Positions 1,583-38,088 of a DNA stretch of 38,262 bases are shown piece by piece. The translations under genes and the position numbers were made by a program. This DNA is from Candidatus Woesearchaeota archaeon (GTDB lineage Archaea; Nanobdellota; Nanobdellia; SCGC-AAA011-G17; PNOQ01), in assembly GCA_018652625.1 (NCBI GenBank), contig JABIBT010000028.1, positions 1-38,262 on the forward strand, in the 5' to 3' direction. Below the pieces are notes generated by a model. It was not told the DNA's origin. It ran no database searches and saw nothing but the letters and a program-made list of their open reading frames with translations. Within the stretch, counting starts at the first letter, position 1. The number at the start of each line of letters is the position of its first letter.

Positions 1583-1924
1583 ATGAGAAGCATATTGCGT
1601 TCTAAAATCCATAAGGCTACTGTAACTGAAGCTGACTTAGGCTATGTAGGTAGTATAACCATTGATGAAGATTTAATTGATAAGGTTGGTTTTATGGACG
1701 GTGAAAAAGTTTTGGTAGTTGATAATACTAACGGTGCTAGGCTAGAAACTTATGTAATAGTTGGTGAGAGAGGTTCTGGAATAATATGTATGAATGGAGC
1801 AGCAGCACATCTGATAAAAAAAGGTGATGAAATCATCATCATGGGTTTTGAGTTGACTGATAAACCAATTAAATCTAAAAATATTTTAGTTGATGAAAAT
1901 AATAAATTTGTGAGATATTTATAA
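1583..1924 (+). CDS. panD: aspartate 1-decarboxylase (pyruvoyl-dependent, bacterial PanD type)
   Basis: [23 protein letters not shown]|SITID contains the Gly24-Ser25 self-cleavage site. The NGAAAH motif is present and the length (113 aa) is typical of PanD. Confidence 0.85.
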
Positions 1925-2524: not shown

Positions 2525-2634
2525 GAGCCCGTAGCTTAGCCTGGTGGAGCACCGGTCTTATATGACGGTTATTGATTTTGTCAATAGCTTGCTAGGAACA
2601 CCGGCGGTCGGGAGTTCAAATCTCCTCGGGCTCA
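2525..2634 (+). tRNA. tRNA-Ile(UAU) with a 36-nt intron at canonical position 37/38
   Basis: Hand fold: acceptor GAGCCCG/CGGGCTC, D arm GCTT..GAGC, anticodon stem CCGGT/ACCGG, loop CT-TAT-A, T arm GGGAG-TTCAAAT-CTCCT, discriminator A. Exons are 2525-2562 and 2599-2634. The helix CTTA/TAGG flanked by 3-nt bulges TAT and AAC gives a bulge-helix-bulge-like splice motif. Confidence 0.7.
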
Positions 2635-3272
2635 CTTTTATATTCTCCGTACTTTTTCCAGAATTCATATTTTGATTTTTTATAAGGATTGCTTGATCCT
2701 ATTTCACACATCCATTTTGTTACTTCCTTTTTCCCGTGTAACTTTATAGAATCCTTATAGTGACTTAGTATTGGGTTAAATCCCTTACCTCTTAATATTT
2801 TTAGAAGTTGGTTAATTAAATTTGTGTTGTGTGAAGATATTTCTATTATGGGATATGTTCTTTTGTCTCTTTTGTGATTGTTTTTTGTAAAATAAATCGA
2901 TCCGTCAGTATCAAATAACCCCCTTAATACATTGTTAATAAAACCTTTTTTTAGAAACTTGTTTGAGATTATCATTCCTTGTTTTTTTCCATAAGGAAAG
3001 TTTAACTGGTCATTTAAAAAAGCGGAGAATTTTTTATTTGAGAATGTAATAAATATTGCATTTTTGTTATTTCTGTAACCAATTGATATCTTTCTTTTTG
3101 TTATTCTTTCAATGAGATTTTGTAAGTATGTGTAATACTCTCTGTCATTTTGGCTGTGCCCATCTATTCTGATTATTTCTTTGTTTCTATTTTGTGAATA
3201 AAATTTGGATATGCATCCATCTCCTAGTAAGATTCCATAAAATTCTGCTAACTCTTTATTTATTTTAAACAT
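2616..3272 (-). CDS. free-standing double-motif LAGLIDADG homing endonuclease-like protein
   Basis: Two LAGLIDADG motifs are present: FYGILLGDGCI near the N-terminus and LRGLFDTDGSIYF mid-protein. It has its own TATA (TTTATAAA, 3291-3298) about 20 nt upstream of the ATG at 3272. The last 6 codons and the TGA stop are antisense to the tRNA 3' end. Confidence 0.8.
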   Translation of the reverse strand: MFKINKELAEFYGILLGDGCISKFYSQNRNKEIIRIDGHSQNDREYYTYLQNLIERITKRKISIGYRNNKNAIFITFSNKKFSAFLNDQLNFPYGKKQGMIISNKFLKKGFINNVLRGLFDTDGSIYFTKNNHKRDKRTYPIIEISSHNTNLINQLLKILRGKGFNPILSHYKDSIKLHGKKEVTKWMCEIGSSNPYKKSKYEFWKKYGEYKSEPEEI

Positions 3273-3366
3273 CTTTTAGATATGCTTTTTATGTTTATAA
3301 ATTCTGTCTGCGTGCGTGGCAAGATGGCAAGGAAGATTTTATAAAGAATATTTTTTAAGTTTAAGT

Positions 3367-3666
3367 ATGGTCCATTCAAATTTTGGTTTGAGACATTTTA
3401 GTAAAAGAAAGAAAAGAAGTTTTATTGATAAGTTAATTTATGTTTTTGCTATAGGTGGACCGTTGATGAACATCCCCCAATTATTAAAAATTTGGACCGA
3501 AAAAAATTCCTCTGGTGTTTCTGTAATTTCTTGGATTGGTTTTTCTCTGACAGCTTTAATTTGGTTAGTGTATGGTATTATTCATAAAGAGAAACCTATT
3601 ATAGTTGCTAATATTTTATACTTCGTTTTACAAGTCGGAGTTATTATTGGTGCTTTAGCCTATTAG
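3367..3666 (+). CDS. PQ-loop / SemiSWEET-like 3-TM membrane protein
   Basis: About 99 aa from the in-frame ATG at 3367, with a TATA (TTTTATAAA) about 27 nt upstream. It has three predicted TM helices and a PQ motif in TM1 (GGPLMNIPQLLKIW). The track start 3316 is a GTG with no promoter support. Confidence 0.6.
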   Translation: MVHSNFGLRHFSKRKKRSFIDKLIYVFAIGGPLMNIPQLLKIWTEKNSSGVSVISWIGFSLTALIWLVYGIIHKEKPIIVANILYFVLQVGVIIGALAY

Positions 3667-13915: not shown

Positions 13916-13988
13916 GGCGGTGGTAGTATAGTGGTTATTACATACGGTTGTGGTCCGTAAAACCCGGGTTCAATTCCCGGCTACCGCA
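13916..13988 (+). tRNA. tRNA-His(GUG) copy 1: encoded G-1, discriminator A73, no CCA
   Basis: Acceptor GCGGTGG/CTACCGC, anticodon stem TACGG/CCGTA with loop TT-GTG-GT, T arm CCGGG-TTCAATT-CCCGG. A G at 13916 precedes position 1. A TATA (ATTTATAAA) lies about 30 nt upstream. Confidence 0.75.
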
Positions 13989-14151: not shown

Positions 14152-14226
14152 GACGGTGTTAGTTTAACGGTAGAACGTAGGATTGTGGATCCTATAGTCC
14201 GAGTTCGATTCTCGGGCGCCGTCCCA
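14152..14226 (+). tRNA. tRNA-His(GUG) copy 2: G-1:C73 pair and genomically encoded CCA
   Basis: G-1 at 14152 and acceptor ACGGTGT/GCGCCGT (two G-U pairs). D stem GTTT/GAAC with A14, G18, G19 and A21. Anticodon stem TAGGA/TCCTA with loop TT-GTG-GA, T arm CCGAG-TTCGATT-CTCGG. C73 at 14223 is followed by CCA at 14224-14226. Confidence 0.8.
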
Positions 14227-14270: not shown

Positions 14271-15413
14271 ATGGAAACTGTAAAAGGTTTTAAGGAATTT
14301 TATGGCGAGGAAGCTATTAAGAGGAAAAGAGTAAAAGAGATATTAGTTAAGTATTTTACACTTTATGGGTATGAACCTGCTGAAACTCCAATAGTAGAGT
14401 ATGAAGAATTTGTTAAGGGGGATAATGTTAATGATGAAGCCGTCTCAGATATTTTTAAATTACAAGATAGGGGCAAAAGAAAATTAGCTTTGAGGTATGA
14501 AGCTACGTTTCAATTAAAAAGACTGAGTAAGAATAAAAAATTGCCATTTAAAAGATTTCAAATTGGAGAAGTTTTTAGGGATGAGCCGATTTCTGCTAAT
14601 AGGTTTAGACAATTTACTCAGTGTGATGTTGATGTTGTTGGATCTTCTATTAGAGATGAAGCTGAAATTTTGGCTTTGACATTTTTTGTTCTAAAAGAAT
14701 TGAAGATTGATGCAGTAATTAATATTAATAATAGGAAGTTATTGAATGAAATTTTAGATAAAGAGAAAGTTAAAGAAAAAGAAGAAGTAATTAGGGAAAT
14801 TGATAAATTAGATAAACTTCCTGAATCTGAAGTTAAGAAAAATTTAAAGAAGTACAAGGCTGAAAAAGTTTTAAGTATTTTTAAGAAAGATAGTTTTGAA
14901 GAGTATGAGAGCTATAAAGAAATTAAAGAGTTATTGAAATATTGCAAATTTTATGGAATTAAAGTTAATTTTTTACCTTCTTTGGCTAGAGGATTAAGTT
15001 ACTATAATGGTACCGTTTTTGAGATTAAAACTACAAAGATGAAGGAAACTGTTTGTGCAGGGGGTTCTTATTTAGTTAATAGACTTCAGAGTACTGGAAT
15101 TGCTTTTGGTTTGGAGAGGTTATGTGCTTTGTCTAAAGTTGATTTGAGTGAGAAAAATGTTTTAGCTATTGCTTTGGTTGATAATAAAGAAGTTGTTAAG
15201 ACTGTTCAGAGCCTGAGAGACGAAGGGATAATTTGTTCTTTACTCTTTGGGAAACCAAGTAAGGCTATGCAATATGCAAACAGTAAAGGAATTAATTATG
15301 TTTTGTTTATTGGAGAAAAAGAGTTGAAAAGTAAGAAATTTAAGTTGAAAGATATGAAAACTGGAAAAGAAAACAATTTAAATTTTGATAGTTTAATAAA
15401 AAAATTAAAATAA
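14271..15413 (+). CDS. hisS: histidyl-tRNA synthetase (class II)
   Basis: Motif-2-like FQIGEVFRDEPISANRFRQFTQCDVDVVG and LRYEATFQ. The C-terminal anticodon-binding-like region has LLFGKPSKAMQYANSKGINYVLFIGEKE. SD GGAGGT lies 8 nt upstream. Confidence 0.85.
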   Translation: METVKGFKEFYGEEAIKRKRVKEILVKYFTLYGYEPAETPIVEYEEFVKGDNVNDEAVSDIFKLQDRGKRKLALRYEATFQLKRLSKNKKLPFKRFQIGEVFRDEPISANRFRQFTQCDVDVVGSSIRDEAEILALTFFVLKELKIDAVININNRKLLNEILDKEKVKEKEEVIREIDKLDKLPESEVKKNLKKYKAEKVLSIFKKDSFEEYESYKEIKELLKYCKFYGIKVNFLPSLARGLSYYNGTVFEIKTTKMKETVCAGGSYLVNRLQSTGIAFGLERLCALSKVDLSEKNVLAIALVDNKEVVKTVQSLRDEGIICSLLFGKPSKAMQYANSKGINYVLFIGEKELKSKKFKLKDMKTGKENNLNFDSLIKKLK

Positions 15414-19268: not shown

Positions 19269-21164
<1,896 letters not shown>

Positions 21165-21165
21165 G

Positions 21166-21630
21166 ATGATGCGTGGTTTAATTAATCCGGAAAATGCAGA
21201 ACTTGTAATATATCATCCAGAATTACATGCAATAAAAAAAACTTGGCCACTGGAAGGAGTTTTATTTAGAGTTGAAACTCTTGAGTCAGTTGGTGAAGGG
21301 TTATTTAGATATGGTTTGAGATTGACTAACTCTTCTTTAAATAATTTGAGTAATTTGGAGAGAAGATTTTATGATCCTCTTAGTAGGAATATGGATTTTT
21401 TATCTGTTGCTACAGAATTAGCATATAGAAAACATAGAGTTTTGCCTTTTAATATTATTGAGCCAGATATTAAAGAAGGTTTTGATAGATTTGTTGAAAA
21501 TACTTCATTACATATGGATTCAAATGCATTAAAGTCATTATCCTTTAATAGGCGAGTTTTTACATTATCTAAATATCTTGAGATGGCTATCAATTCTAAA
21601 GTTGCTAAAGAAATGGGGTTGAAAAGATGA
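21166..21630 (+). CDS. hypothetical protein inserted between gyrB and gyrA
   Basis: 154-aa ORF starting 1 nt after the gyrB stop and overlapping the next gene by ATGA. No recognisable motif. Confidence 0.5.
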   Translation: MMRGLINPENAELVIYHPELHAIKKTWPLEGVLFRVETLESVGEGLFRYGLRLTNSSLNNLSNLERRFYDPLSRNMDFLSVATELAYRKHRVLPFNIIEPDIKEGFDRFVENTSLHMDSNALKSLSFNRRVFTLSKYLEMAINSKVAKEMGLKR

Positions 21631-22175
21631 TTAAGGCAATTGTATTTGATCTTGCTGGAGTAATTTATACTATGGGATTCTCTTTTCACAAAGAGTTTGA
21701 AGTAATAAGGGGGTATTGGAATAAAGCAAAAGTTGGAGAGATTAGTAATGATGATTTTTTGAAATTAGGTTCTGAAAAATTTAATTCGAGTGTTGAAAAT
21801 TTTGTTAATTTCTTTTGGGATAATAATGAACTTATTCCTGGAATGCAAGAATTAATTATTAAGTTGGGTGAAAAATATAAAATAGGTTTTTTGGCAAATT
21901 TAGTTGAAGAAGTTTATAAAGTTGATATTGATTTATGGGATTTTGAATCTTTTGGAGAGAGTGTTATGAGTTTTAGAGAAAAAGTTAAGAAGCCGGATGT
22001 AGAGGCTATTGAATTGATTATTAATAAGTTGGGTGTTGAGAAAGAGGAGATTATTTATGTGGATGATAAACCTGAAACTATTGAAAAATATTCTGAATAT
22101 GGTGTTAAATGTGTGAAATTTGATAGTAAAAAACAGTTAATTGAAGATTTGAAAAAACTTGGAGTTGAATTATGA
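21627..22175 (+). CDS. HAD-superfamily hydrolase (subfamily IA-like)
   Basis: Motif [11 protein letters not shown], motif III KKPD and motif IV YVDDKPE. ATGA overlaps on both sides. Confidence 0.7.
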
Positions 22176-24553
22176 CAGATAAAGTTCAACAAAGGCTAAT
22201 TGAAGAAGAAATGAAAGAAGCATACATAGATTATGCTATGTCTGTTATTGTTTCTAGAGCTTTGCCAAATGTTTGTGATGGTTTGAAGCCAGTTCATAGA
22301 AGAATTTTGTATGCTATGAAAGACATGGGGATGTTCCATAATAAACCGTTTAAAAAATGTGCAAGAATTGTTGGAGAGGTTTTAGGTAAGTACCATCCAC
22401 ATGGAGATGTTGCTGTTTATGATTCATTAGTTAGAATGGCTCAAGAGTTTAGTTTAAGATATCCTTTGATTAATGGACATGGAAACTTTGGTAGTATCGA
22501 TGGAGATAGAGCAGCTGCTATGAGGTATACTGAGGCAAGATTACAAAGACTTGCTTCTGAAATGTTAGAGGATATTGATAAGGATACTGTGGATTTTGTT
22601 GATAATTTTGATGCTTCATTGAAAGAGCCAACTGTTTTGCCTTCTAAATTGCCAAATCTTTTGATAAATGGGTCTACAGGTATTGCTGTTGGCATGGCCA
22701 CAAATATACCTCCTCATAATCTTTCTGAGGTTTTAGATGCATGTATTGCATTTGTTGATAATCAAGAAGTTTCTGTTCAAGAATTAATGAAATATGTTAA
22801 AGGTCCTGATTTTCCTACCGGTGGAATTATTTTAGGTAAGCAAGGAATTATGCAAGCCCATACAAAAGGAAAAGGATCCGTAAAAGTTAGATCTAAGGTT
22901 GATATTGAAGATAATAAATTGATAATTACTGAGATTCCTTATCAGGTAAACAAGACTACATTAATTGAAGGAATTGTTAATTTAGTAAAAACAAAAAGGG
23001 TAGAAGGAATTTCAGATATTAGAGATGAGTCGGATAGGGATGGGATGAGAGTTGTTATTATTTTGAAAAAAGGAGTAAATGCAGAATTAATTTTAAATCA
23101 GTTATATAAAAATTCTCAATTGCAAACTAGTTTCGGGATGAATATGATTGCTTTAGTGAATAATCAACCTAAAACTCTAAATTTACTTGAGATGATTAAA
23201 TATTTTGTTTTACATAGAAAAGATATTGTAATTAAAAGAACCAAATTTGATTTAAAGAAAGCCGAGAAAAGAGCACATATTTTAGAAGGTTTGAAGATTG
23301 CTTTGGAAAATATTGATGAAGTTGTTAGAATTATAAAATCTAGTAAGGATGTTGAAAATGCTAGAAGATTATTAATTGCTAAGTTTTCCTTATCTTTAGA
23401 GCAGAGTCAAGCAATTTTAGATATGAGATTGCATAGGTTGACTTCATTAGAAACTAAGAAATTAAATGATGAATTAAAAGAATTAGTTAAATTAATCAAA
23501 GAATTAAGAGAGATTCTTGGAGATGAAAGAAAAGTTTATTCTATAATAAAAGAGGAATTTAAAGAATTAAAGAAAAAATATGGTGATGAAAGAAGAACCG
23601 AGTTATTAGATGTTGAAGAAGAGATTGAAGACGAGGATTTGATTAAAAAAGAAAATGTGGTAGTTACTGTTACTCATGATGGTTATGTTAATAGATTGCC
23701 AGTTAAAACATATAGGCAGCAAGGGCGTGGTGGAACAGGTATAAAGGCAACTGGAACTAAGGAAGAAGACTTTGTTGAGAATATATTTACTACAAGTACA
23801 CATGATTACTTATTATTTTTTAGTAATTTGGGAAGAGTTTATTGGAATAAGGCTTATGCTATTCCATCTAGTTCTAGATATGCTAAAGGAATGAATTTGA
23901 TTAATTTACTTAGATTGAGAGAGGGTGAGAGAATTAGGACAATTATTCCAGTTTCATCTTTTGAGGAAGGATATTTGAATATTATAACTAAGAAAGGATT
24001 GATTAAGAAAACTGCTTTGAAAGAGTATGGTAGACCTAGAAAGGGGGGAATTGTTGCTGTTAATCTTAAGCAAGGAGATAATTTAGTTGAGGTCATTTTA
24101 ACAAAAGATGGTGAAGAATTAGTTGTTGCAACTGCTAGTGGTCGTGCTATTAGATTTAAGGATTCATTAATTAGGCCGGTTGGTAGAAATTCTATGGGTG
24201 TTCGTGCTATTAAATTAAGAAAAGATAAAGTTATTGGCGTAGATATTGCCAGAGATAGTTTATTAACAATTACTGAAAATGGATTTGGTAAGAGGACCAA
24301 TATTAAGGAGTATAGTACTATTGGACGTGGAGGTTTAGGAGTTATTAATATCAAAACTTCTGAAAGAAATGGTAAAGTTATTGGTGTTAAATCAGTTAAA
24401 TCTGAAGATGATTTGATGTTGGTTACTAAGAAAGGAACTTTGATTCGTGTTAGTGCTAAGAACATTTCTAAGATTGGGCGTAATACACAAGGTGTTAGAA
24501 TTATGAAGTTAAAAGATGGAGATAAAGTTATTTCTGTGGCTAGAGTTTTTTAG
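22172..24553 (+). CDS. gyrA: DNA gyrase subunit A
   Basis: [19 protein letters not shown] and [10 protein letters not shown] (catalytic Tyr). The C-terminal region has beta-pinwheel repeats. Confidence 0.95.
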
Positions 24554-27250: not shown

Positions 27251-28966
27251 TTACATTCCCCACGTTGGATTAACATTTCTTTTGATTTTAGCTATTTCCT
27301 TTAACAATTGCACCTCAGATTCATTTAAATACTTTTTCATTAGTTTTTTAAGCTTTTTGAAATCTTCTTGAGGTATATTTGAATATAATACATCATTTTC
27401 TTTTATTTGTCTTCCACAGGTTACATTGGGTAAAGATATAGCTACTTCCTTGCCCTGCTTTGCTTCAGATACAGTTTCCTTGTTATCTTGTATTTCTTTT
27501 AGTTCTGTTAATTTCTTTCCTTCTGAAGTCATTAATGGGGTTCCTGCTCTTGCTGTTCCGATTAACACATCAACTCCCACTATTGCAGGATTTAATTGTC
27601 TAAACATACAGCCGGGCATAATCTTTAATTTGAATGGTTTTACTAAATTTTCAAATTCTTTTGATTCTAATTCTTTTGATTTTTTTTCTTTGTATTCAAC
27701 AATATCATCTACTATTTTATAAACAACTTCGTTTGTTATTATTCTTACGTCTTTAGATTCTTCTAGAATTTTTACATTAAACCCGACTACTATTTGGTTT
27801 AAAGGATCTTCATTTGATGATGCTTCAGCAATATCTGTTTTTGTTATGTTTCCGATTGCTGCTTTTTTTATTTTTACCTCTTTGTCTTTTAGTAAAGAAA
27901 CTAGTGCTTCTAAAGAACCTAAAGTGTCTGCTTTTGCTATGATTCCTTCATTGTCAGTATCTATTGTTACTTCATCTATTTCTTGTTGTAGTTCTTTGAT
28001 TATCTCATTTTCTTTTTTATTTGCAACTCTTATTGGCATTCCTGGAATTGCTTCATCTAAATCTGGAGCAGAGATTTTTATTCCTGCAGATGCGTGAACT
28101 TCTTTTTGTTCTTTTAATTTTGATTTCTCGTACTTGAATAGACATTTTACTTTTGTTTTTATTGGCTCGTTTAAAGTCCCTATTAAAATGGTGTCATTTT
28201 GTTTTATTTTTCCATCATAAATTACAACATCTAATGTTTTTCCTATTCCTTTTTCTTCTGTAACTTCTAGAATTGTTCCTTTTGCAGGTTTTTCTAAATC
28301 TGTTTCTAGTGATTGTTCTAAGAATTTTTGAGCTAGGCCGGAAACTACCATTAGTAACTCCGGAAGGCCATCTTTTGTTTTTGCAGAGCACGGAATAATA
28401 GCTACTTGTTTTGTGTGGTCTTTTACTCTGTCAAATCTTTCTGATTGTAATCCTTGTTCGTGTAGTGTTTGAACTATTTTGTATAATTTTGTTTCAATGT
28501 CTGCCAATACAAATTCTTGTTGCTCTTTAATATTTTGTAGAATTGGTTTTTTATTTGAATTAAATCCTCCCACTCTATCTATTTTGTTTGCTGCTATGAC
28601 AAAAGGAGTTTTTGAGTTTTTTAAAATTTCAATTGCTTCTAGAGTTTGAGGTTTTGCTCCTTCGTTTATATCTATAACTAGAATTGCTATATCTGCTATG
28701 TTCCCTCCTCTTTTTCTTAAAGTTGTGAAAGCTTCGTGACCGGGTGAGTCTATAAATAAAATTCCTGGAATTGTTAGGTTTATGTTTTTTAGTAAATCAC
28801 CACAGGTTTCTTGTATTTTGTTTAATTCTATAGAATGTGCTGTGATATTTTGAGTAATTCCACCAGCCTCTTTGTCTGCTACGGAAGTATTTCTAATAGA
28901 ATCTAAAATACTTGTTTTTCCGTGGTCTACGTGTGCTAGTAAGACACATATTGGTTGCCTTATCAT
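27251..28966 (-). CDS. infB: translation initiation factor aIF5B (IF-2 homolog)
   Basis: AHVDHGKTSILD, DSPGHEAF and NKID. Size and domain order are typical of aIF5B. Confidence 0.9.
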   Translation of the reverse strand: MIRQPICVLLAHVDHGKTSILDSIRNTSVADKEAGGITQNITAHSIELNKIQETCGDLLKNINLTIPGILFIDSPGHEAFTTLRKRGGNIADIAILVIDINEGAKPQTLEAIEILKNSKTPFVIAANKIDRVGGFNSNKKPILQNIKEQQEFVLADIETKLYKIVQTLHEQGLQSERFDRVKDHTKQVAIIPCSAKTKDGLPELLMVVSGLAQKFLEQSLETDLEKPAKGTILEVTEEKGIGKTLDVVIYDGKIKQNDTILIGTLNEPIKTKVKCLFKYEKSKLKEQKEVHASAGIKISAPDLDEAIPGMPIRVANKKENEIIKELQQEIDEVTIDTDNEGIIAKADTLGSLEALVSLLKDKEVKIKKAAIGNITKTDIAEASSNEDPLNQIVVGFNVKILEESKDVRIITNEVVYKIVDDIVEYKEKKSKELESKEFENLVKPFKLKIMPGCMFRQLNPAIVGVDVLIGTARAGTPLMTSEGKKLTELKEIQDNKETVSEAKQGKEVAISLPNVTCGRQIKENDVLYSNIPQEDFKKLKKLMKKYLNESEVQLLKEIAKIKRNVNPTWGM

Positions 28967-32680: not shown

Positions 32681-33120
32681 GAAATTTTGATTTATTAAAT
32701 AGCAAGGAAATAAAGAAGTTAAATAAGCAGTTAAAGGAGCAATTTGGAAATGAATTTAATTTTAAAGAATATTTAGTTTTTAGAACACCGAGAGATAGAA
32801 TTTATATTATTAATAAAGAATTTGGAGAACATGACTTTTCTAAATTAAAAATAAATAATCTTGGTTTGTATTTTTTGAGTATTGTTAAGGATGGTTTAAG
32901 GTTGAGTATTGATGGTTCACAATTATTTAAAGCTAAAAAGAATATTTTGGAGTTGAATGAAAGAAATTTTAATAGGTGGATGGTGGGGTTTGATTTAAAT
33001 TTGGAGTTAGATAATGGTTATTTTTTAATTAAGTATGAAGGTGAGTTCTTGGGTTGTGGAAAGTCTACTGGAAATAAAGTTCTAAACTATGTTCCAAAGG
33101 CAAGAAGAGTGAAGTTTTAA
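32677..33120 (+). CDS. NIP7-like / PUA-domain RNA-binding protein
   Basis: Motif order parallels NIP7: MRNF..., DRIYIINKE, NLGLYF, then a C-terminal PUA-like GYFLIKYEGEFLGCGKSTGNKVLNYVPKARR. ATGA overlap with gltX. Confidence 0.5.
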   Translation: MRNFDLLNSKEIKKLNKQLKEQFGNEFNFKEYLVFRTPRDRIYIINKEFGEHDFSKLKINNLGLYFLSIVKDGLRLSIDGSQLFKAKKNILELNERNFNRWMVGFDLNLELDNGYFLIKYEGEFLGCGKSTGNKVLNYVPKARRVKF

Positions 33121-33602
33121 AACTTTATTTCTATTCCTGCAGAGCCTCTGCTTTTTGGAACTTTTTTTGGAGAATTTTCTGGGTAGGTTATAGATTCATA
33201 ATCTAATCTTACTCCAAATCTATCTGAGAGTTCGGCAGTGATTCCTAGCTTGACTGATGATGCACTAACTTCTCTACCTATCTCGTCGTGTATTTTAGCT
33301 AAACTTACTTTCTGTCTTAAACTTAACCAGTTTAATTTTTCTCTTAAATTTAGTCCAAGATATTGCGTGTTTGTCCCTTTGATTAGGGGAGTTCCTTCGA
33401 ATAATGTGCTAAAGGATAATCCTGCCCCTATATAATTGTTTAAAGATTTGTTTACCTCAATTCCTGCTTCATAGTGTCGGTTATTGTTATTTTCTGAGGC
33501 ATATCCTGAGTTTAAATGCACGTAAATACTTGAATTTGCCAAATTTGGTGCAATAAGTACCAAACTTCCTAAAATTACTTTTTTTAATATATTCCTTACC
33601 AT
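33117..33602 (-). CDS. secreted protein with bacterial OMP-like 8-strand beta-barrel pattern
   Basis: Start at ATG 33602, with a TATA at 33631-33638 on the minus strand. Signal-like N-terminus MVRNILKKVILGSLVLIAPNLANS. Eight amphipathic alternating segments follow: SIYVHLNSGYA, HYEAGIEVN, YIGAGLSFS, QYLGLNLRE, LSLRQKVSLA, VKLGITAEL, FGVRLDYES, SAGIEIKF. The C-terminal Phe and hydrophobic residues at -1/-3/-5 resemble the OMP beta-signal. Confidence 0.5.
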   Translation of the reverse strand: MVRNILKKVILGSLVLIAPNLANSSIYVHLNSGYASENNNNRHYEAGIEVNKSLNNYIGAGLSFSTLFEGTPLIKGTNTQYLGLNLREKLNWLSLRQKVSLAKIHDEIGREVSASSVKLGITAELSDRFGVRLDYESITYPENSPKKVPKSRGSAGIEIKF

Positions 33603-33669
33603 ATTTCTATTTATCTGAAGTATATTCTTGTTTATAAGTTTAACTATAATCACTACTTATTAGTAATTA

Positions 33670-34416
33670 TTAAAATAGATTTTTAAACCAATCTAGAACG
33701 TCTTGTAGAATTCCTGTTTTTTCCTCAGATAGTTGTTTTTTTTCTTTTATCATTTTGGTTCTTAGAGAATAAACTTTTTGATTTCCCTCTCCTTCTTTAC
33801 AATCTTTATCTAGATGGGCTAAACAGTCTGGGTCGCATTTTCCATCTTTCTGTCCATCACACCAACTATCTTCATTTCCACTTATACAGTCTTGTGGACA
33901 ATTTTTATAGTTTTCATGAATGTTTTTGTCACAAATCCCATCTGAGTTGCACTCGATTTTTATATATTTATTCTTTTCAGAGGTAGTTATTATACTCCTG
34001 CTACTTTTATCTAGTACTTTTATCTCTTCTAATTCAATTAGACTGTTTGTTGGAATAATCCTATATTTTATTTCAAATCCTATTTCTTTTTCTTCATCCG
34101 GTCCTAATGTGATTTCGTATTCAAGGTATGGCCAGCCTATACTCTCCGTTTCCAAATATTTTATTTCCCCCCCAGGGTAAGAGGTTAATGTTTCCCCCAT
34201 TCCATTATTTATTAGTCTCTGGATAATTACTGTTCTTTGTATGTCTTCGTTATTTTTTATTGTGAATTGAGTTAATTGTGGTTTTCTAACTTCATAAGAA
34301 ATTTCATTAATGTCTTTTGAATAACTTATTAATATTTCGTTTGTTTTTGTAGCTAGTACTACGCTCGATAATAATATGATTGTAATAACTCCCATTAATA
34401 TTATTGATATTTTCAT
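33670..34416 (-). CDS. signal/anchor protein with Cys-rich DGxCD...CPxDC module, coupled to the giant ORF
   Basis: The ATG at 34416 lies 1 nt after the giant ORF's TAA. N-terminus is MKISIILMGVITIILLSSVVLA, followed by a beta-rich middle. The Cys cluster ECNSDGICDKNIHENYKNCPQDCISGNEDSWCDGQKDGKCDPDCLAHLDKDC has 10 Cys. Confidence 0.55.
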   Translation of the reverse strand: MKISIILMGVITIILLSSVVLATKTNEILISYSKDINEISYEVRKPQLTQFTIKNNEDIQRTVIIQRLINNGMGETLTSYPGGEIKYLETESIGWPYLEYEITLGPDEEKEIGFEIKYRIIPTNSLIELEEIKVLDKSSRSIITTSEKNKYIKIECNSDGICDKNIHENYKNCPQDCISGNEDSWCDGQKDGKCDPDCLAHLDKDCKEGEGNQKVYSLRTKMIKEKKQLSEEKTGILQDVLDWFKNLF

Positions 34417-34417
34417 T

Positions 34418-37400
34418 TTAGGAACACTCCAGATAAGCACAGTTTTCATTGAAACATAAATTGGGTATTTCTCCAGTTAGTATTGGTTCATATGGATCAA
34501 AACATCTTATATCAAAGTATCCATAGTTTTCTATATCGTTTCCATTAATTTTTACTGATTTCCATTCGTTGTTTTCGTTGGGATCTAAATCTATTCCTAC
34601 TCCATAATTTATTTCTGGTTTGTTATTTCTTATTATATTATTTTCTATATAGGTATGTATGCCGTTTGTTTCTTCGCCAGTAATAGTTATTTGCGTATTT
34701 TCAAGATAATTTTCTCTTATATCCAGGGTATGGGGGAGGTAACCGGGATTTTCAAAATATATTTTTGTTGCTTCTGACTCTTTGTTATTATAAAATTCAT
34801 TTCTGTATATATTCCCTATTGTTTCGATTTCTCCAGTTATTGCATAATTGTTATTATAGAATTTATTTTCACGAATAAAAAAGTTTCTATTACTATATAC
34901 TTTTATTGCGTTTCCCCATTCAATGAAAGTTATTCCTTCTATTTGTGTGTATTCTTTGTTGTTTGTATTAATTCCAATTTTATTTTCGCAGTTATCTGCC
35001 ATACATTTTATCTCTGTATTTAATCCTTCTACTTTTATATTGTCTGCCATAAGTTTTATTCCTTCTTCTAGTTCATATATTCCTGGACAAAAAGTAGTAT
35101 CTTCGTAGATTTCCATTCCACTAAATGGAACGGTATGCCCACATTCTCCGTTGCAACCAAGTACATTTTCATATGCCCATTCATCCCAACTATCTCCTGA
35201 TCCCCAGCCTTCATAGAACTCCGCATTTTCGTTTCCAATTTCGAAGCCTATATCTAAGAAAAATGGAACCTCTCCTATGCCTGTACAGTATCCTGGGAAA
35301 CCCGCTATGCCAGTTTCAGAATTTAGTGGATCTTCCACCCTATTACCAAAGTCATAGATCACCCATTTACCGACTTGTTCATCCCAAATAAGGTTCCAGT
35401 TATGTATTCCTCCTTGTGAAGATAATACCTGGTGCCCCTCTTCTTCATTTGCAGGATAAAATCCTGTTTTTCTTAATAAGGCTACCGCTGCAAATGACCA
35501 GTCATTACATAATCCAGAGTGTATTGTTCCGAGGGTTTCTTTGGATGATCTTTCTCTTAATTTACATAAACCGGGCGTACCTGGTCCGGGGCAGCTAATG
35601 AGTTCCATGTTTTCATGATATTCTAACCCGGTTAGTGGATCAAAATATGGATTTGCGCAACCCCCAGTATCCCCATATATTCCTCCAGCTGTTTGGCACA
35701 TATCCTTTGCGAATCCTTTCATTGGATGATATGGGGGTAATGTATATCCCTCGCAACAGTATTCTGGCCAAAAGTAATTCCATAACCATAATTCATCTTC
35801 AAGATGATTTTTGGGACCCTCGAATAGTCCCAATCTCAAATTTTTTTCGATATAATTTCTTACACATTCTTTTTCTTTATAGTTAGGATTGGATTGGTAA
35901 ACGGATGTTCTTGCATACTCACATACTTTTGTATTTTTATTATTTATTACTCCATCATTTATGCAACAATCAAATGCATCATCTATTATATAGTCTTGAT
36001 AGGTAGCTTCATCATCGTCAAAATCGGATCTTACATTTATTAATCCACACGAATCTTTTTCTCCAGAATCTATAAGCCAATTATATAGTTTTACAGTATA
36101 CTCTCCGTCTTCATTGTTTTCACAATTTGTATCACCTGGTTCATAAGATGAGACGCATTGACAATTATAACATGTTTCTCCTTGTGAGCAATCGTTATCT
36201 GTTTCACATTCTTCTCCAATCTCAAATGATTCGTATTCTCCCTCATAGGAGGATTGACTTATTTCGTGATCACCACATACAAATCCAAGTAATTTATCAC
36301 AGTTTGTTCTGTCAAATTCAATATTTTCTACTTCTTCTATGTATGCATTATCACATATGATGTCATAATTAATCTGATCTACTATATTATTATATCCTAA
36401 AAAGTTTATATCATACCCGTTTATATATATTCCATTGTGGGCGTTATTTCTTATAATGTTATTTTTGAAGAAGATTTTTCCGGATTTGTATATGTTTATT
36501 GCGGACAATTGTTCGGCCAAGATTCCGTTATAATATGGCCCATCATTATTCCAATTTGGATTTATTTCTTCAATCTTGCTATTTTTTATACCAATTAACT
36601 CGCTGTTTCCTATAAATATTCCGGTTAGTGATTGTTTTACTTCCATATCATCTAGTGTAATGTTGTATGACTCTATAATTTCTATGCCTTTATCGTTATA
36701 TTGATACTCAATATTACATCCTTTTATTGCAATATTTTCTTTGTTATTTATTTTTATTGCTGGTTCTAGCCAAGGCCCTTCACCATCTCCTATAATCTTT
36801 GTGTTATCGCATTCCACTATTAAATTATCCTCTGCTATATTTAGCCACCACCCTTCTATTTCATATTCTCCTTCACAAAAATAAGTATTTTCTGTTATTA
36901 CCATGTTTGGTTCTGGTTCTATACAACAATCTTTATCATTGTAGAAGTTACATCCAATACCGCAGCAGCCGTTTTTGTATGAATAACTGCAATAGCAATC
37001 TGGGTCATTTCCTGAACAACCTTCGGGACAGTTTCCGTTACAACCATCTGATTCACAATCATCTTCACACATTTCATCGGATTGACATAAGTCTATATTT
37101 GTTTCTGGGTCCCACCAACAGCCATAATCATAAAAGTCGTCACAATACCACTCGTTCATGAAACATAAATTTGGATTATCTTCGTAGTAACATATTTCGC
37201 ATTCTCCTACTAGGCCTTCTCCTGCACAAAATCCCCATCCTGGTATATGTGTGCATGTATTTTCTATGCATTCTTTGTGTGCTTCTTGGCATTCACAGTT
37301 AGGATAGGTATTTTCTATAGAATTACAATTTGTGAGTTCTAGTATACAATCTTCATAGTCCAATTCACACAAGTCTGTTCCAGTGCATAGTATTTTTGCG

Positions 37401-37981
37401 TCTTGGCCATCCCAGAAATCTTGAGTGCATTCTCCCCCGTAATATGTACAGTCGTAGTTACATATTCCGTTGACACATTCATATCCCATTGCGCAATGGT
37501 TGTTACATTCTCCACAATGATTTTTGTCTGTAAGGGGGTCTATACATTCTCCGCTGCAATCAAACCAATCATCTGGGCAATTTAATTCACATATACCATC
37601 TATGCAAATCATATTTTCTCCGCAAGTCTGGCCTTCACAACCCTCCTGAGAGCAATCCTCGGAACAGCCGGTACATTCTTCATGAATGACACACCTTTTC
37701 AAACAACTTGGTGGAACATCTCCTAAACTATATTGAACATCTTTTGGAGGACTCAAGGGAATCTCTCCCCCTGCTCTAGATGGCCTTTCACCAGAAAAAA
37801 TATCTCCAGCACATTGTCTTCCTTGCTGCATTTCCCAATCTTCACATTCTCCAACACCACAAGCGCCATCGGCCCAAGGAGTACATTGTCCACAACCTCC
37901 AGATAGTTTTGGACTTTCCTCACAAGAATTAATAATAAAAACACTAAAAATTAATACTATAAGATAAATTTTATTCCCCAA
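34418..37981 (-). CDS. giant secreted Cys-rich protein: lipobox-like signal, Cys-knot region, beta-helix 1, transglutaminase-like core, beta-helix 2
   Basis: TTG start with SD AGGTGAT 4-5 nt upstream. Signal is MGNKIYLIVLIFSVFIINSC. By my hand count there are about 50 Cys in aa 20-356, including DPLTDKNHCGECNNHCAMGYECVNGIC. Parallel beta-helix-like Asn/Ile repeats occupy aa about 360-560 and about 955-1160. GLCNDWS...GGIHNWN...VIYDFG has Cys-35-His-17-Asp spacing. Confidence 0.8.
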   Translation of the reverse strand: MGNKIYLIVLIFSVFIINSCEESPKLSGGCGQCTPWADGACGVGECEDWEMQQGRQCAGDIFSGERPSRAGGEIPLSPPKDVQYSLGDVPPSCLKRCVIHEECTGCSEDCSQEGCEGQTCGENMICIDGICELNCPDDWFDCSGECIDPLTDKNHCGECNNHCAMGYECVNGICNYDCTYYGGECTQDFWDGQDAKILCTGTDLCELDYEDCILELTNCNSIENTYPNCECQEAHKECIENTCTHIPGWGFCAGEGLVGECEICYYEDNPNLCFMNEWYCDDFYDYGCWWDPETNIDLCQSDEMCEDDCESDGCNGNCPEGCSGNDPDCYCSYSYKNGCCGIGCNFYNDKDCCIEPEPNMVITENTYFCEGEYEIEGWWLNIAEDNLIVECDNTKIIGDGEGPWLEPAIKINNKENIAIKGCNIEYQYNDKGIEIIESYNITLDDMEVKQSLTGIFIGNSELIGIKNSKIEEINPNWNNDGPYYNGILAEQLSAINIYKSGKIFFKNNIIRNNAHNGIYINGYDINFLGYNNIVDQINYDIICDNAYIEEVENIEFDRTNCDKLLGFVCGDHEISQSSYEGEYESFEIGEECETDNDCSQGETCYNCQCVSSYEPGDTNCENNEDGEYTVKLYNWLIDSGEKDSCGLINVRSDFDDDEATYQDYIIDDAFDCCINDGVINNKNTKVCEYARTSVYQSNPNYKEKECVRNYIEKNLRLGLFEGPKNHLEDELWLWNYFWPEYCCEGYTLPPYHPMKGFAKDMCQTAGGIYGDTGGCANPYFDPLTGLEYHENMELISCPGPGTPGLCKLRERSSKETLGTIHSGLCNDWSFAAVALLRKTGFYPANEEEGHQVLSSQGGIHNWNLIWDEQVGKWVIYDFGNRVEDPLNSETGIAGFPGYCTGIGEVPFFLDIGFEIGNENAEFYEGWGSGDSWDEWAYENVLGCNGECGHTVPFSGMEIYEDTTFCPGIYELEEGIKLMADNIKVEGLNTEIKCMADNCENKIGINTNNKEYTQIEGITFIEWGNAIKVYSNRNFFIRENKFYNNNYAITGEIETIGNIYRNEFYNNKESEATKIYFENPGYLPHTLDIRENYLENTQITITGEETNGIHTYIENNIIRNNKPEINYGVGIDLDPNENNEWKSVKINGNDIENYGYFDIRCFDPYEPILTGEIPNLCFNENCAYLECS

Positions 37982-38088
37982 AATATCACCTAATTTTATT
38001 TGTGATTGGACATTTATTAAGCTTTTTATTCTTGAAGGTTGTTTTGGACTAAAGAAAACCTTTTAAATTTATTTTTTTCTTAATTCTT

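What the first reader, a model, noticed from the sequence alone, without database searches (positions are those of the whole stretch)
33117..37981. Three-gene cell-surface module: giant Cys-rich beta-helix/transglutaminase protein, Cys-rich anchored partner and OMP-like beta-barrel
Three same-strand genes all encode exported proteins. The 1187-aa protein and the 248-aa partner are translationally coupled (TAA-A-ATG), and the 161-aa barrel-like protein follows 64 nt later with its own TATA. The first two share the same kind of Cys motif: NCPEGC...DPDC in the giant and NCPQDC...CDPDC in the partner. Nothing else in the window has this character; the rest is information-processing housekeeping. 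For a small-genome, probably episymbiotic archaeon, a secreted adhesin/enzyme with an accessory partner and a membrane-inserting barrel is a plausible host-attachment or host-envelope-remodelling apparatus. I do not recognise this gene combination as a described system.
Basis: partly seen in the sequence, partly recalled or inferred. Interest (0 to 1): 0.8.

Follow-up and report, generated by a model that had tools for sequence, protein, structure and literature searches.

The report
Archaeal surface gene trio with OmpA-like barrel
A marine Woesearchaeota archaeon carries three adjacent genes for exported proteins: a giant lipid-anchored cysteine-rich enzyme/adhesin, a small co-translated partner, and a protein predicted to fold like a bacterial outer-membrane beta-barrel, which is not expected in an archaeon.

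Summary
Three minus-strand genes (1187, 248 and 161 aa) sit at 33117-37981, each with an N-terminal export signal.

- **Giant:** conserved TTG start with a strong Shine-Dalgarno, a lipobox (IINSC), 86 cysteines, two right-handed beta-helix domains, and a transglutaminase-like core with an invariant Cys825/His860/Asp877. hhalign gives 92.8% probability against a bona fide Transglut_core protein.
- **Partner:** translationally coupled to the giant. Its 8-Cys module is homologous to giant residues 299-352 (E 2e-4).
- **Third gene:** it has its own conserved TATA box. AlphaFold2 (pLDDT 76) models it as eight long amphipathic strands. The Foldseek hits listed (top 50) in PDB are all outer-membrane-type beta-barrels: bacterial OMPs such as OmpA, OprF, NspA, Ail and OmpX, plus de novo designed transmembrane barrels. 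All four orthologues end in a beta-signal-like G-h-x-h-[KRN]-F.

The trio recurs in two other Woesearchaeota lineages. Housekeeping neighbours there are 73-87% identical, so synteny is weak evidence. The trio itself is only 26-57% identical, so it evolves fast. No relatives were found outside this clade, and databases call all three proteins hypothetical.

A role in host attachment is plausible but untested. Sequence homology of the barrel to OMP families is sub-threshold. A bacterial-type LspA lies 2 kb beyond the window.

The parts
34418..37981 (-). Giant gene, 1187 aa, 86 Cys (7.2%); predicted surface lipoprotein
   Evidence: ORF. Orthologues: P0007/L001 47% identity, P0008 53%, L012. Listed as 'hypothetical protein', Candidatus Woesearchaeota archaeon, MBT3691163.1.
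37985..37991 (-). Shine-Dalgarno AGGTGAT, 3 nt upstream of the TTG start
   Evidence: AGGTGATA plus TTG is invariant in window, L001 and L012.
38055..38068 (.). Invariant ATTTAAAAGGTTTT in the divergent intergenic region between the methyltransferase gene (+, ATG 38089) and the giant; a TATA-like element, direction not resolved
   Evidence: Alignment of three lineages. Promoter role is inferred.
37922..37981 (-). Signal peptide with lipobox (IINSC, Cys20)
   Evidence: Read from sequence. Orthologues have IISSC / VINSC / IISSC, and the paralogue P0009 has FVSSC. LspA is encoded about 2 kb away.
36917..37921 (-). Disulfide-rich stalk, residues 21-355 (57 Cys)
   Evidence: Cys counts. Sub-threshold Stig1 2e-4 and NCBIfam C_rich_MXAN6577 2.4e-8. 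It is the most conserved part of the protein.
36926..37087 (-). 8-Cys module of the giant (residues 299-352), homologous to the partner's module
   Evidence: BLASTP E 2e-4, 33% identity. Nearly invariant in window, P0007 and P0008. Absent from the L012 giant.
36302..36916 (-). Right-handed beta-helix domain 1 (residues ~356-560)
   Evidence: NosD hits in P0007 (1.7e-4, residues 389-550) and in L012 (4.9e-8, above cutoff) at the equivalent place. Its N-cap is homologous to that of helix 2, E 1e-5.
35132..36124 (-). Conserved Cys-containing region (residues ~620-950) holding the transglutaminase-like core (core about 35336-35560; Cys825 35507-35509, His860 35402-35404, Asp877 35351-35353)
   Evidence: Pfam Transglut_core sub-threshold in two orthologues at the same place: 0.028 and 0.11. 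C/H/D are invariant in three lineages. hhalign 92.8%, E 4e-7, against a bona fide Transglut_core protein with the triad aligned.
34421..35119 (-). Right-handed beta-helix domain 2 (residues ~955-1187)
   Evidence: Pfam Beta_helix 4.2e-6, 26.9 bits against cutoff 25.9, residues 1003-1152.
33670..34416 (-). Partner gene, 248 aa. Layout: signal peptide (cleavage-like VLA|TK), beta-rich domain 30-155, 8-Cys module 156-206 (33799-33951), KEGEGNQ linker, amphipathic C-terminal tail ...LDWFKNLF (33673-33720)
   Evidence: ORF and junction. Orthologues are 39-50% identical with 8 invariant Cys. No Pfam, NCBIfam or PDB match.
33631..33637 (-). TATA box TTATAAA of the barrel gene, preceded by conserved ATAG..A.A
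   Evidence: Invariant in four loci, about 30 nt upstream of the ATG.
33117..33602 (-). Barrel gene, 161 aa. Signal peptide residues 1-23, then eight strands at residues 24-35, 42-53, 58-69, 77-90, 93-105, 111-124, 129-139 and 151-160, ending ...GIEIKF
   Evidence: AF2 pLDDT 75.8, pTM 0.68. Foldseek against PDB and BFVD returns OMP-type barrels. OMP_b-brl 0.002, OMP_myx_plus 0.04. Orthologue alignment.

Best explanation
This is a lineage-restricted, fast-evolving cluster of three exported cell-envelope proteins in a marine Woesearchaeota (DPANN) archaeon. It most likely forms one surface module for contact with, and enzymatic attack on, another cell's envelope.

What is shown by computation. 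Gene 1 encodes a lipobox protein. It has a ~335-residue disulfide-rich stalk, then a beta-helix (NosD/CASH-type) domain, a transglutaminase-like Cys-His-Asp domain, and a second beta-helix. Gene 2 is translationally coupled to gene 1. It encodes a secreted protein with a beta-rich domain, an 8-Cys module homologous to one in the giant, and a short amphipathic C-terminal tail. Gene 3 has its own conserved TATA box. It encodes a secreted 8-stranded barrel with the geometry, loop/turn pattern, aromatic rims and C-terminal Phe motif of small bacterial outer-membrane proteins (OmpA/OprF N-domain, OmpX, NspA).

What is inferred. The giant is lipid-anchored at Cys20 after cleavage by the LspA encoded 2 kb away, and projects from the cell. 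Its beta-helices bind or cut glycans, and the transglutaminase-like domain cleaves or cross-links peptide bonds in a target envelope. The partner associates with the giant. The barrel inserts into a lipid bilayer, either the target cell's or an unrecognised outer layer of the archaeon, as an anchor or docking point. Small 8-stranded barrels such as OmpA are known to fold into bilayers without BAM in vitro (my own knowledge, not tested here).
For: Giant. TTG start with SD conserved. Beta_helix above the Pfam cutoff; NosD 4.9e-8 in L012. Transglutaminase core: sub-threshold Pfam hits at the same place in two orthologues, an invariant triad, and hhalign 92.8% with the triad aligned to a protein that scores Transglut_core 1.8e-21.

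Partner. The giant and partner modules are homologous.

Barrel. AF2 gives 8 strands, pLDDT 75.8, pTM 0.68. The Foldseek PDB hits listed (top 50) are all outer-membrane-type barrels, bacterial or de novo designed, led by OmpA at 9e-6 and OprF with TM 0.68/0.81 and rmsd 2.8 A. The BFVD top hits are phage-encoded OMP barrels. OMP_b-brl and OMP_myx_plus are the top hits independently in two orthologues that are only 26% identical. The hydrophobic/polar alternation and the long-loop/short-turn pattern are conserved, and indels fall only in loops L2 and L4. All four orthologues end in F.

Cluster. The trio is kept in three lineages, with the coupling and the barrel promoter conserved. It diverges much faster than its neighbours: 26-57% against 73-87%. 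All three families are confined to this clade; the barrel has only 2 clusters among 1.8 billion representatives.

Context. LspA with intact Asp motifs lies nearby. Lipoproteins are predicted to be prevalent in DPANN (PMC12462473). Some Woesearchaeota carry peptidoglycan-degrading and lytic genes, read as attack on bacteria (PMC9723730).
Against: - There is no expression, localisation or interaction data.
- Synteny comes only from close relatives that also keep the flanking genes, so it does not prove a functional link.
- The barrel has a separate promoter.
- Sequence membership of the barrel in OMP families is sub-threshold. The L001-clade orthologues give no Pfam hit. hhalign to E. coli OmpX and OmpA is insignificant. 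PDB sequence searches were empty.
- The AF2 model rests on 2 effective sequences, and only 2 of 5 models were confident.
- Archaea have no known outer membrane or BAM machinery, and I could not scan the rest of the genome.
- The Cys module shared by giant and partner is missing in the L012 giant.
- No host is known.
- Within the population the trio is invariant, so there is no sign of diversifying polymorphism.
Confidence: 0.5

Rival explanations
1. The three genes are independent envelope proteins that happen to be neighbours in a compact, collinear genome. There is no joint apparatus. Giant and partner may work together, but the barrel is unrelated.
For: The flanking housekeeping genes are equally syntenic in all three lineages. 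The barrel gene has its own conserved promoter. A paralogous lipobox protein that shares the giant's N-terminal 100 residues (P0009, L009) has no partner-like or barrel-like neighbour.
Against: All three are orphan families confined to the same small clade, and all three are exported and fast-evolving. The block stays intact while the neighbourhood changes: an extra 196-aa gene between the PUA-domain gene and GluRS in L012, and different genes beyond GluRS in L001.
Confidence: 0.25
2. The 161-aa protein is a soluble or S-layer-associated up-and-down beta-barrel (a lipocalin- or avidin-like binder) in the space outside the archaeal membrane. Its likeness to OMPs is convergent, coming from amphipathic beta-hairpins.
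For: Archaea have no known outer membrane or BAM. Sequence similarity to OMP families is below every curated cutoff. hhalign to real OmpX and OmpA is insignificant. One-dimensional alternation alone cannot tell a hydrophobic core from a hydrophobic exterior.
Against: No soluble barrel appears in the 50 PDB hits listed, although streptavidin and lipocalins are abundant in PDB (my own knowledge). The strands are 10-14 residues long. The polar face is rich in Gly/Ser and paired charges, as in OmpA/OmpX interiors. Aromatic residues sit at both strand ends. Long loops alternate with 2-4-residue turns. The C-terminal G-h-x-h-[KRN]-F is conserved.
Confidence: 0.2
3. The giant is an extracellular polymer-degrading enzyme for nutrition, acting on glycans or proteins in marine particles, rather than a host-contact device. 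Partner and barrel would be accessory envelope proteins.
For: Beta-helix (pectate-lyase/NosD-like) domains are common in polysaccharide-active enzymes, and transglutaminase-like cores include peptidases (family knowledge).
Against: No catalytic glycoside hydrolase or lyase family was detected, only generic beta-helix models. The long disulfide-rich stalk, the lipid anchor, the rapid divergence and the domain shuffling (1, 2 or 3 beta-helices in the three lineages) look more like a cell-contact protein.
Confidence: 0.2
4. The OMP-like gene is bacterial contamination or a chimeric assembly.
For: The predicted fold is typical of bacteria.
Against: The same arrangement is assembled independently in at least 24 contigs from ENA, JGI and Logan samples at 99.8% identity, contiguous with the archaeal rRNA operon and ribosomal genes. 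It is also present in two other Woesearchaeota lineages. GC3 is like that of the neighbours. The barrel's stop codon overlaps the convergent archaeal PUA-domain gene.
Confidence: 0.01

Closest known systems
Small 8-stranded bacterial outer-membrane beta-barrels (OmpA N-terminal domain, OprF N-domain, OmpX/Ail, NspA; Pfam OMP_b-brl PF13505, NCBIfam TIGR04565) and their phage-encoded counterparts
   Same: Sec-type signal peptide. Eight long antiparallel amphipathic strands. Long odd loops and 2-4-residue even turns. Aromatic residues at the strand ends. Terminal Phe preceded by alternating hydrophobic residues. Best structural matches: TM 0.68/0.81 to OprF 4rlc, E 9e-6 to OmpA 1bxw.
   Different: It is encoded by an archaeon with no known outer membrane or BAM. 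HMM scores are below the curated cutoffs (18.8 and 16.1 against 28.7 bits). There is no significant profile match to E. coli OmpX or OmpA. It has no periplasmic OmpA_C domain. The family has only a handful of members, all in one Woesearchaeota clade.
Transglutaminase-like cysteine peptidase superfamily (Pfam Transglut_core PF01841; includes pseudomurein endoisopeptidases PeiP/PeiW)
   Same: The motif G-x-C-x-D-W-[SA]-F...L-[LM]-R-K-T ... H-x-W-N-L-I ... [WY]-V-x-Y-D, with Cys, His and Asp aligned to a bona fide member (hhalign 92.8%).
   Different: Below the Pfam cutoff (15.1 and 13.2 against 23 bits). Embedded in a ~330-residue Cys-containing region with no other match. No detectable similarity to PeiP of phage psiM2 or to any PDB sequence. 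The substrate is unknown.
Right-handed parallel beta-helix / CASH-domain surface proteins (Pfam Beta_helix PF13229, NosD PF05048)
   Same: Two such domains with homologous N-caps (I.EDT.FC.G.YEL). Scores are above the cutoff.
   Different: Combined with a lipobox, a 57-Cys stalk and a transglutaminase-like core. The number of beta-helix domains varies from 1 to 3 among orthologues.
Bacterial lipoprotein pathway (lipobox + signal peptidase II, LspA) and archaeal lipobox proteins (AliA/AliB pathway, PMC12462473)
   Same: Lipobox-type signal peptide on the giant. A Peptidase_A8 gene with both catalytic Asp motifs lies in the same genome neighbourhood.
   Different: PMC12462473 states that no archaeal Lsp or Lgt homologues had been identified. 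Here an LspA homologue is present in an archaeon. Lipidation itself, and Lgt or AliA, were not examined.
Giant multidomain surface proteins of DPANN episymbionts (for example the SPEARE proteins of Nanohaloarchaeota; recalled from memory, not checked here)
   Same: A very large, secreted, multidomain protein in a small-genome DPANN archaeon, proposed to mediate host contact.
   Different: A different domain set (no protease or restriction-endonuclease domains were detected), extreme Cys content, a lipobox anchor, and linkage to an OMP-like barrel.

Membership tests
OMP_b-brl (PF13505) / small 8-stranded outer-membrane barrels | Profile HMM score at or above the curated cutoff | tested here: not met
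   Window 18.8 bits (E 0.002) and L012 16.1 bits (E 0.013), against a cutoff of 28.7. The L001-clade orthologues give no hit. TIGR04565 scores 13.9 and 16.3 against 60.
OMP_b-brl (PF13505) / small 8-stranded outer-membrane barrels | Eight antiparallel membrane-length amphipathic strands forming a closed barrel | tested here: met
   AF2 gives 8 strands of 10-14 residues, pLDDT 75.8, pTM 0.68. Foldseek top hits are OmpA, OprF, NspA, Ail and OmpX. The model comes from a 3-row alignment, and only 2 of 5 models were confident.
OMP_b-brl (PF13505) / small 8-stranded outer-membrane barrels | C-terminal beta-signal: terminal aromatic residue with alternating hydrophobic residues | tested here: met
   The four orthologues end GIEIKF, GLAFKF, GLAFRF and SIGFNF. 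Caveat: C-terminal Phe is common in this AT-rich genome (the partner and the PUA-domain protein also end in F).
OMP_b-brl (PF13505) / small 8-stranded outer-membrane barrels | Long external loops alternating with short periplasmic turns | tested here: met
   Loops are 6, 5-15, 5 and 10-12 residues; turns are 4, 2 and 4. Indels occur only in L2 and L4.
OMP_b-brl (PF13505) / small 8-stranded outer-membrane barrels | Resides in an outer membrane and is assembled by BAM/Omp85 | not testable with these tools
   The organism is an archaeon. The rest of the genome could not be scanned.
Transglut_core (PF01841) | Profile HMM score at or above the curated cutoff | tested here: not met
   15.1 bits (window subregion) and 13.2 bits (P0007), against a cutoff of 23. 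The L012 giant gives no hit.
Transglut_core (PF01841) | Cys-His-Asp triad in the canonical order and context | tested here: met
   C825, H860 and D877 are invariant in three lineages. They align to Cys, His and Asp of a protein scoring Transglut_core 1.8e-21, with hhalign probability 92.8% and E 4e-7. The template was picked from a weak tblastn hit, so there is some selection bias.
Right-handed beta-helix (PF13229 / PF05048) | Profile HMM score at or above the curated cutoff | tested here: met
   Beta_helix 26.9 against 25.9 in the window giant. NosD 33.1 against 23.6 in the L012 giant.
Lipoprotein (signal peptidase II substrate) | Lipobox [LVI][ASTVI][GAS]C at the end of a signal peptide | tested here: inconclusive
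   The window has I-N-S-C (Asn at -2 is non-canonical). L001 and L012 have canonical I-S-S-C. No SignalP was run.
Lipoprotein (signal peptidase II substrate) | Signal peptidase II encoded in the genome | tested here: met
   Peptidase_A8 scores 3.7e-29, 102 bits against a cutoff of 25 (L012). The TIGR00077 lspA equivalog scores 67.4 bits, just below its 73.95-bit cutoff. The same-species copy at L002 3971-4363 keeps GNLIDR and FNVADS. It lies outside the window.
Lipoprotein (signal peptidase II substrate) | Lipid transferase (Lgt or archaeal AliA/AliB) present | not tested
   Only about 6 kb beyond the window was available.
STIG1 (PF04885) / MXAN_6577-like Cys-rich (NF041328) | Profile HMM score at or above the curated cutoff | tested here: not met
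   Stig1 22.1 against 24.1 bits; NF041328 34 against 100 bits. This shows only a generic Cys-spacing resemblance.

The most novel reading that the evidence does not exclude
The 161-aa protein is a genuine membrane-inserting OmpA-type beta-barrel made by an archaeon, which to my knowledge would be the first of its kind. With the lipid-anchored beta-helix/transglutaminase-like giant, it would form an attachment device. The barrel would sit either in the outer membrane of a Gram-negative host or prey, using its conserved beta-signal-like C-terminus or spontaneous insertion, or in a so far unrecognised outer layer of these Woesearchaeota. The same genomes also carry a bacterial-type LspA.
Probability: 0.35. 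Interest if true: 0.85.

Novelty: new variant of a known kind. Interest (0 to 1): 0.62.

Why it matters
As far as I know, beta-barrel outer-membrane proteins are a hallmark of diderm bacteria and the organelles derived from them. An archaeal gene with this fold, conserved and under its own promoter, would raise two questions: how such a protein is assembled without BAM, and in whose membrane it works.

DPANN archaea are thought to live attached to other cells, but the molecules of attachment are known for very few of them. This trio gives three concrete, clonable candidates. It also gives a testable link to bacterial-type lipoprotein processing (LspA) in an archaeon, which a recent survey reported as absent (PMC12462473). 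If the barrel targets a bacterial outer membrane, that would support the genomic suggestion that some Woesearchaeota exploit bacteria (PMC9723730).

Tried and rejected
- **Single-sequence AF2 of the barrel** failed (pLDDT 31).
- **PDB sequence searches** with profiles of the giant, barrel, partner and transglutaminase region gave nothing meaningful.
- **hhalign of the transglutaminase region against PeiP of phage psiM2** gave no similarity.
- **tblastn of the transglutaminase region against phages** gave no match.
- **tblastn of the barrel against plasmids** gave only noise.
- **hhalign of the barrel alignment against real E. coli OmpX and OmpA-TM** gave 0.3% and 2.7% probability. Homology to these proteins is therefore not shown.
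- **The metagenome scan with giant patterns** found nothing, and the GTDB scan found only the already known L001 contig.
- **Extending the genome beyond the window's left end** failed because the contigs end there. BamA/Omp85, Lgt and AliA/AliB could not be searched.
- **Literature searches** for OMP-like barrels, or for cysteine-rich or transglutaminase surface proteins, in DPANN or Woesearchaeota returned nothing relevant.
- **Recent horizontal transfer** was rejected: GC3 matches the neighbours, and no close bacterial homologue exists among 1.8 billion representatives.
- **Hypervariability within the population** was rejected: there are 0-2 differences in the trio across six assemblies.
- **DNA repeats in the region** only mirror the beta-helix duplication.


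Full report
**Setting**

The window is archaeal. It holds a 16S-tRNA(Ala)-23S operon and an archaeal RNase P RNA. It also holds archaeal ribosomal proteins and translation factors. G+C is about 30%. NCBI lists the giant protein as 'hypothetical protein, Candidatus Woesearchaeota archaeon' (MBT3691163.1 and MBT4630792.1). The closest genome in GTDB is also a Woesearchaeota MAG. The same sequence is assembled at 99.8% identity in at least 24 contigs from ENA, JGI and Logan samples. The locus is therefore not a chimera.

**Observation**

Three minus-strand genes are present as described: giant 34418..37981 (1187 aa), partner 33670..34416 (248 aa), and barrel-like 33117..33602 (161 aa).

- The giant starts at TTG, three bases after AGGTGAT. 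Both are invariant in three lineages.
- Giant and partner are joined by TAA-A-ATG. The junction is TAA-AA-ATG in L001. In L012 there is a 19-nt overlap with a GGAGG upstream.
It has an invariant TTATAAA about 30 nt before its ATG in four loci, which fits an archaeal promoter with a very short leader.
- The barrel's stop codon overlaps that of the convergent PUA-domain gene.

**The giant**

- *Signal:* residues 1-20 form a signal peptide ending in a lipobox. The window has IINSC; orthologues have IISSC or VINSC.
- *Stalk:* residues 21-355 carry 57 of the 86 cysteines and are the most conserved part. They give only sub-threshold hits to the Cys-rich families STIG1 and MXAN_6577-like.
- *Beta-helices:* there are two right-handed beta-helix domains, at about 356-560 and 955-1187. 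Beta_helix scores above the Pfam cutoff. NosD scores 4.9e-8 in the L012 orthologue. The two N-caps are homologous, E 1e-5.
- *Transglutaminase-like core:* it lies in a conserved region (about 620-950) between the two helices.
  - Pfam Transglut_core hits two orthologues at the same place, but below the cutoff (0.028 and 0.11).
  - Cys825, His860 and Asp877 are invariant in three lineages.
  - hhalign of the three-lineage alignment against a plasmid protein that is a bona fide Transglut_core member (1.8e-21) gives 92.8% probability, E 4e-7, with the triad aligned.
  - There is no similarity to the pseudomurein endoisopeptidase PeiP or to any PDB sequence.
- *Variable architecture:* L001 has three beta-helices. 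L012 has one, plus a different Cys-rich C-terminus.

**The partner**

All orthologues have a signal peptide with small residues at -3 and -1 (VLA, THA, FSA, AFA). After it come a beta-rich region, eight invariant cysteines, a KEGEGNQ linker, and a short amphipathic tail, W-[FL]-x-x-[LI]-F.

The 8-Cys module aligns with giant residues 299-352 at 33% identity, E 2e-4, Cys for Cys. The L012 giant lacks that module. 'Anchored' is not shown.

**The barrel**

- *Sequence searches:* they find almost nothing. There are only two clusters among 1.8 billion representatives.
- *Family hits:* the only ones are outer-membrane barrel models, all below their cutoffs. OMP_b-brl scores 0.002 and OMP_myx_plus 0.04 for the window protein. 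For the L012 orthologue, which is 26% identical, the scores are 0.013, 0.0076 and YaiO 0.059. The L001-clade proteins give no hit.
- *Structure model:* with a 3-row alignment, AF2 gives pLDDT 75.8 and pTM 0.68. The model has a signal-peptide helix and eight strands of 10-14 residues. Two of five models were confident.
- *Fold search:* the Foldseek hits listed (top 50) in PDB are all outer-membrane-type beta-barrels, either bacterial proteins or de novo designed transmembrane barrels. OmpA scores 9e-6 and OprF reaches TM 0.68/0.81 with rmsd 2.8 A; NspA, Ail, OmpX and OmpW follow. The viral library returns phage-encoded OMP barrels. No soluble barrel appears.
- *Conservation across four orthologues:* the hydrophobic/polar alternation is conserved (mean Kyte-Doolittle hydropathy +1.27 against -1.43). 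Odd loops are longer (6, 5-15, 5, 10-12 residues) than even turns (4, 2, 4). Indels fall only in L2 and L4. All four end in G-h-x-h-[KRN]-F.
- *Other sequence features:* aromatic residues cluster at the strand ends, and the polar face is rich in Gly/Ser and paired charges (read directly from the sequence against the strand map).
- *Against homology:* hhalign to real E. coli OmpX and OmpA-TM is insignificant, and PDB sequence searches are empty.
- *Conclusion:* the fold-level likeness is well supported. Family membership, and homology as opposed to convergence, are not.

**Conservation and linkage**

The trio recurs in L001 (GCA_964481835.1; proteins of 1466 as annotated (about 1472 from the upstream TTG), 244 and 160 aa), in L011 (partner plus barrel), and in L012 (964, about 254 and 162 aa). 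The flanking genes are also conserved. Housekeeping proteins are 73-87% identical, against 44-57% for the giant, 39-50% for the partner and 26-31% for the barrel.

The stronger points are these:

- all three are orphan families restricted to the same clade;
- all three are exported;
- all three evolve several times faster than their neighbours;
- the coupling and the barrel promoter are conserved;
- the block stays intact where the neighbourhood differs.

A paralogue sharing only the giant's first 100 residues (P0009) has no partner or barrel beside it. GC3 gives no sign of recent transfer. The trio is invariant within the population.

**Interpretation**

The anatomy fits a surface module. The giant would be a lipid-anchored stalked enzyme/adhesin, the partner an accessory protein, and the barrel a bilayer-inserting protein. 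The functional reading, contact with and remodelling of another cell's envelope, is an inference. It draws on three things:

- domain types;
- the prevalence of lipoproteins in DPANN (PMC12462473);
- published genomic hints that some Woesearchaeota attack bacteria (PMC9723730, also cited in PMC12352652).

Where an OmpA-like barrel would reside in an archaeon is unexplained. I could not look for BamA, Lgt or AliA/AliB because the available contigs end at the window's edge. I found no paper describing OMP-type barrels in DPANN.

**Verdict**

The parts belong to known kinds of domain, but the combination, and above all an OMP-like barrel in an archaeon, is unusual and undescribed. Interest is moderate to high. 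It is limited by the purely computational evidence, the shallow alignment behind the structure model, and the very narrow taxonomic range.

Noticed in passing
L002 3971-4363 (same species, about 2.1 kb beyond the window's right end); L012 264-656; L001 7498-7890: A bacterial-type lipoprotein signal peptidase (LspA, Pfam Peptidase_A8 3.7e-29, above cutoff) is encoded in these Woesearchaeota. It is short (125-130 aa) but keeps both catalytic Asp motifs (GNLIDR, FNVADS). It lies close to the lipobox-bearing giant. A 2025 survey states that no archaeal Lsp homologue had been identified (PMC12462473).
   Followed up: partly
window 33673-33720 (partner C-terminus); L001 about 15090-15135; L009 4785-7367 and 8461-9171: Several secreted proteins of these archaea end in a short amphipathic tail, W-[FL]-x-x-[LI]-F (DWFKNLF, SWLSEIF, NFFRALF, EWLKNLFKF), after a low-complexity linker. 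This may be a lineage-specific C-terminal anchoring or sorting signal.
   Followed up: no
L009 4785-7367 (P0009) and L010: An 845-860-aa lipobox protein from another contig shares only the giant's first ~100 residues (57% identity: lipobox, CGQCTPW..., IPLSPP...SLGDVPPSC) and then diverges completely. This suggests a reusable N-terminal anchor/stalk cassette on different surface proteins.
   Followed up: partly
window 13917-13988 and 14153-14226: Two tRNA-His(GTG) genes lie directly upstream of the histidyl-tRNA synthetase gene (14271-15413).
   Followed up: no
window 2525-2634 and 2616-3272: Rfam finds a 110-nt tRNA (probably intron-containing; ARAGORN misses it). Its 3' end is overlapped by a 218-aa LAGLIDADG endonuclease ORF on the opposite strand.
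   Followed up: no
window 27251-28966: Across six near-identical assemblies, almost all differences (5-17 per contig) fall in the aIF5B/IF-2 gene, while the surrounding genes are identical. In L007 the S6e gene also carries 12 differences.
   Followed up: no
window 33071-33086 / 33116-33131: A 16-nt inverted repeat (94% complementary, 29-nt loop) spans the overlapping stop codons of the convergent PUA-domain and barrel genes. It may be a bidirectional terminator hairpin.
   Followed up: no
window 1583-1924, 3316-3666, 19269-24553: Bacterial-flavoured genes sit in the housekeeping part: pyruvoyl-type aspartate decarboxylase (PanD), a SemiSWEET-like half-transporter (MtN3_slv), and DNA gyrase GyrB and GyrA separated by two small ORFs (21166-21630 and 21627-22175).
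   Followed up: no
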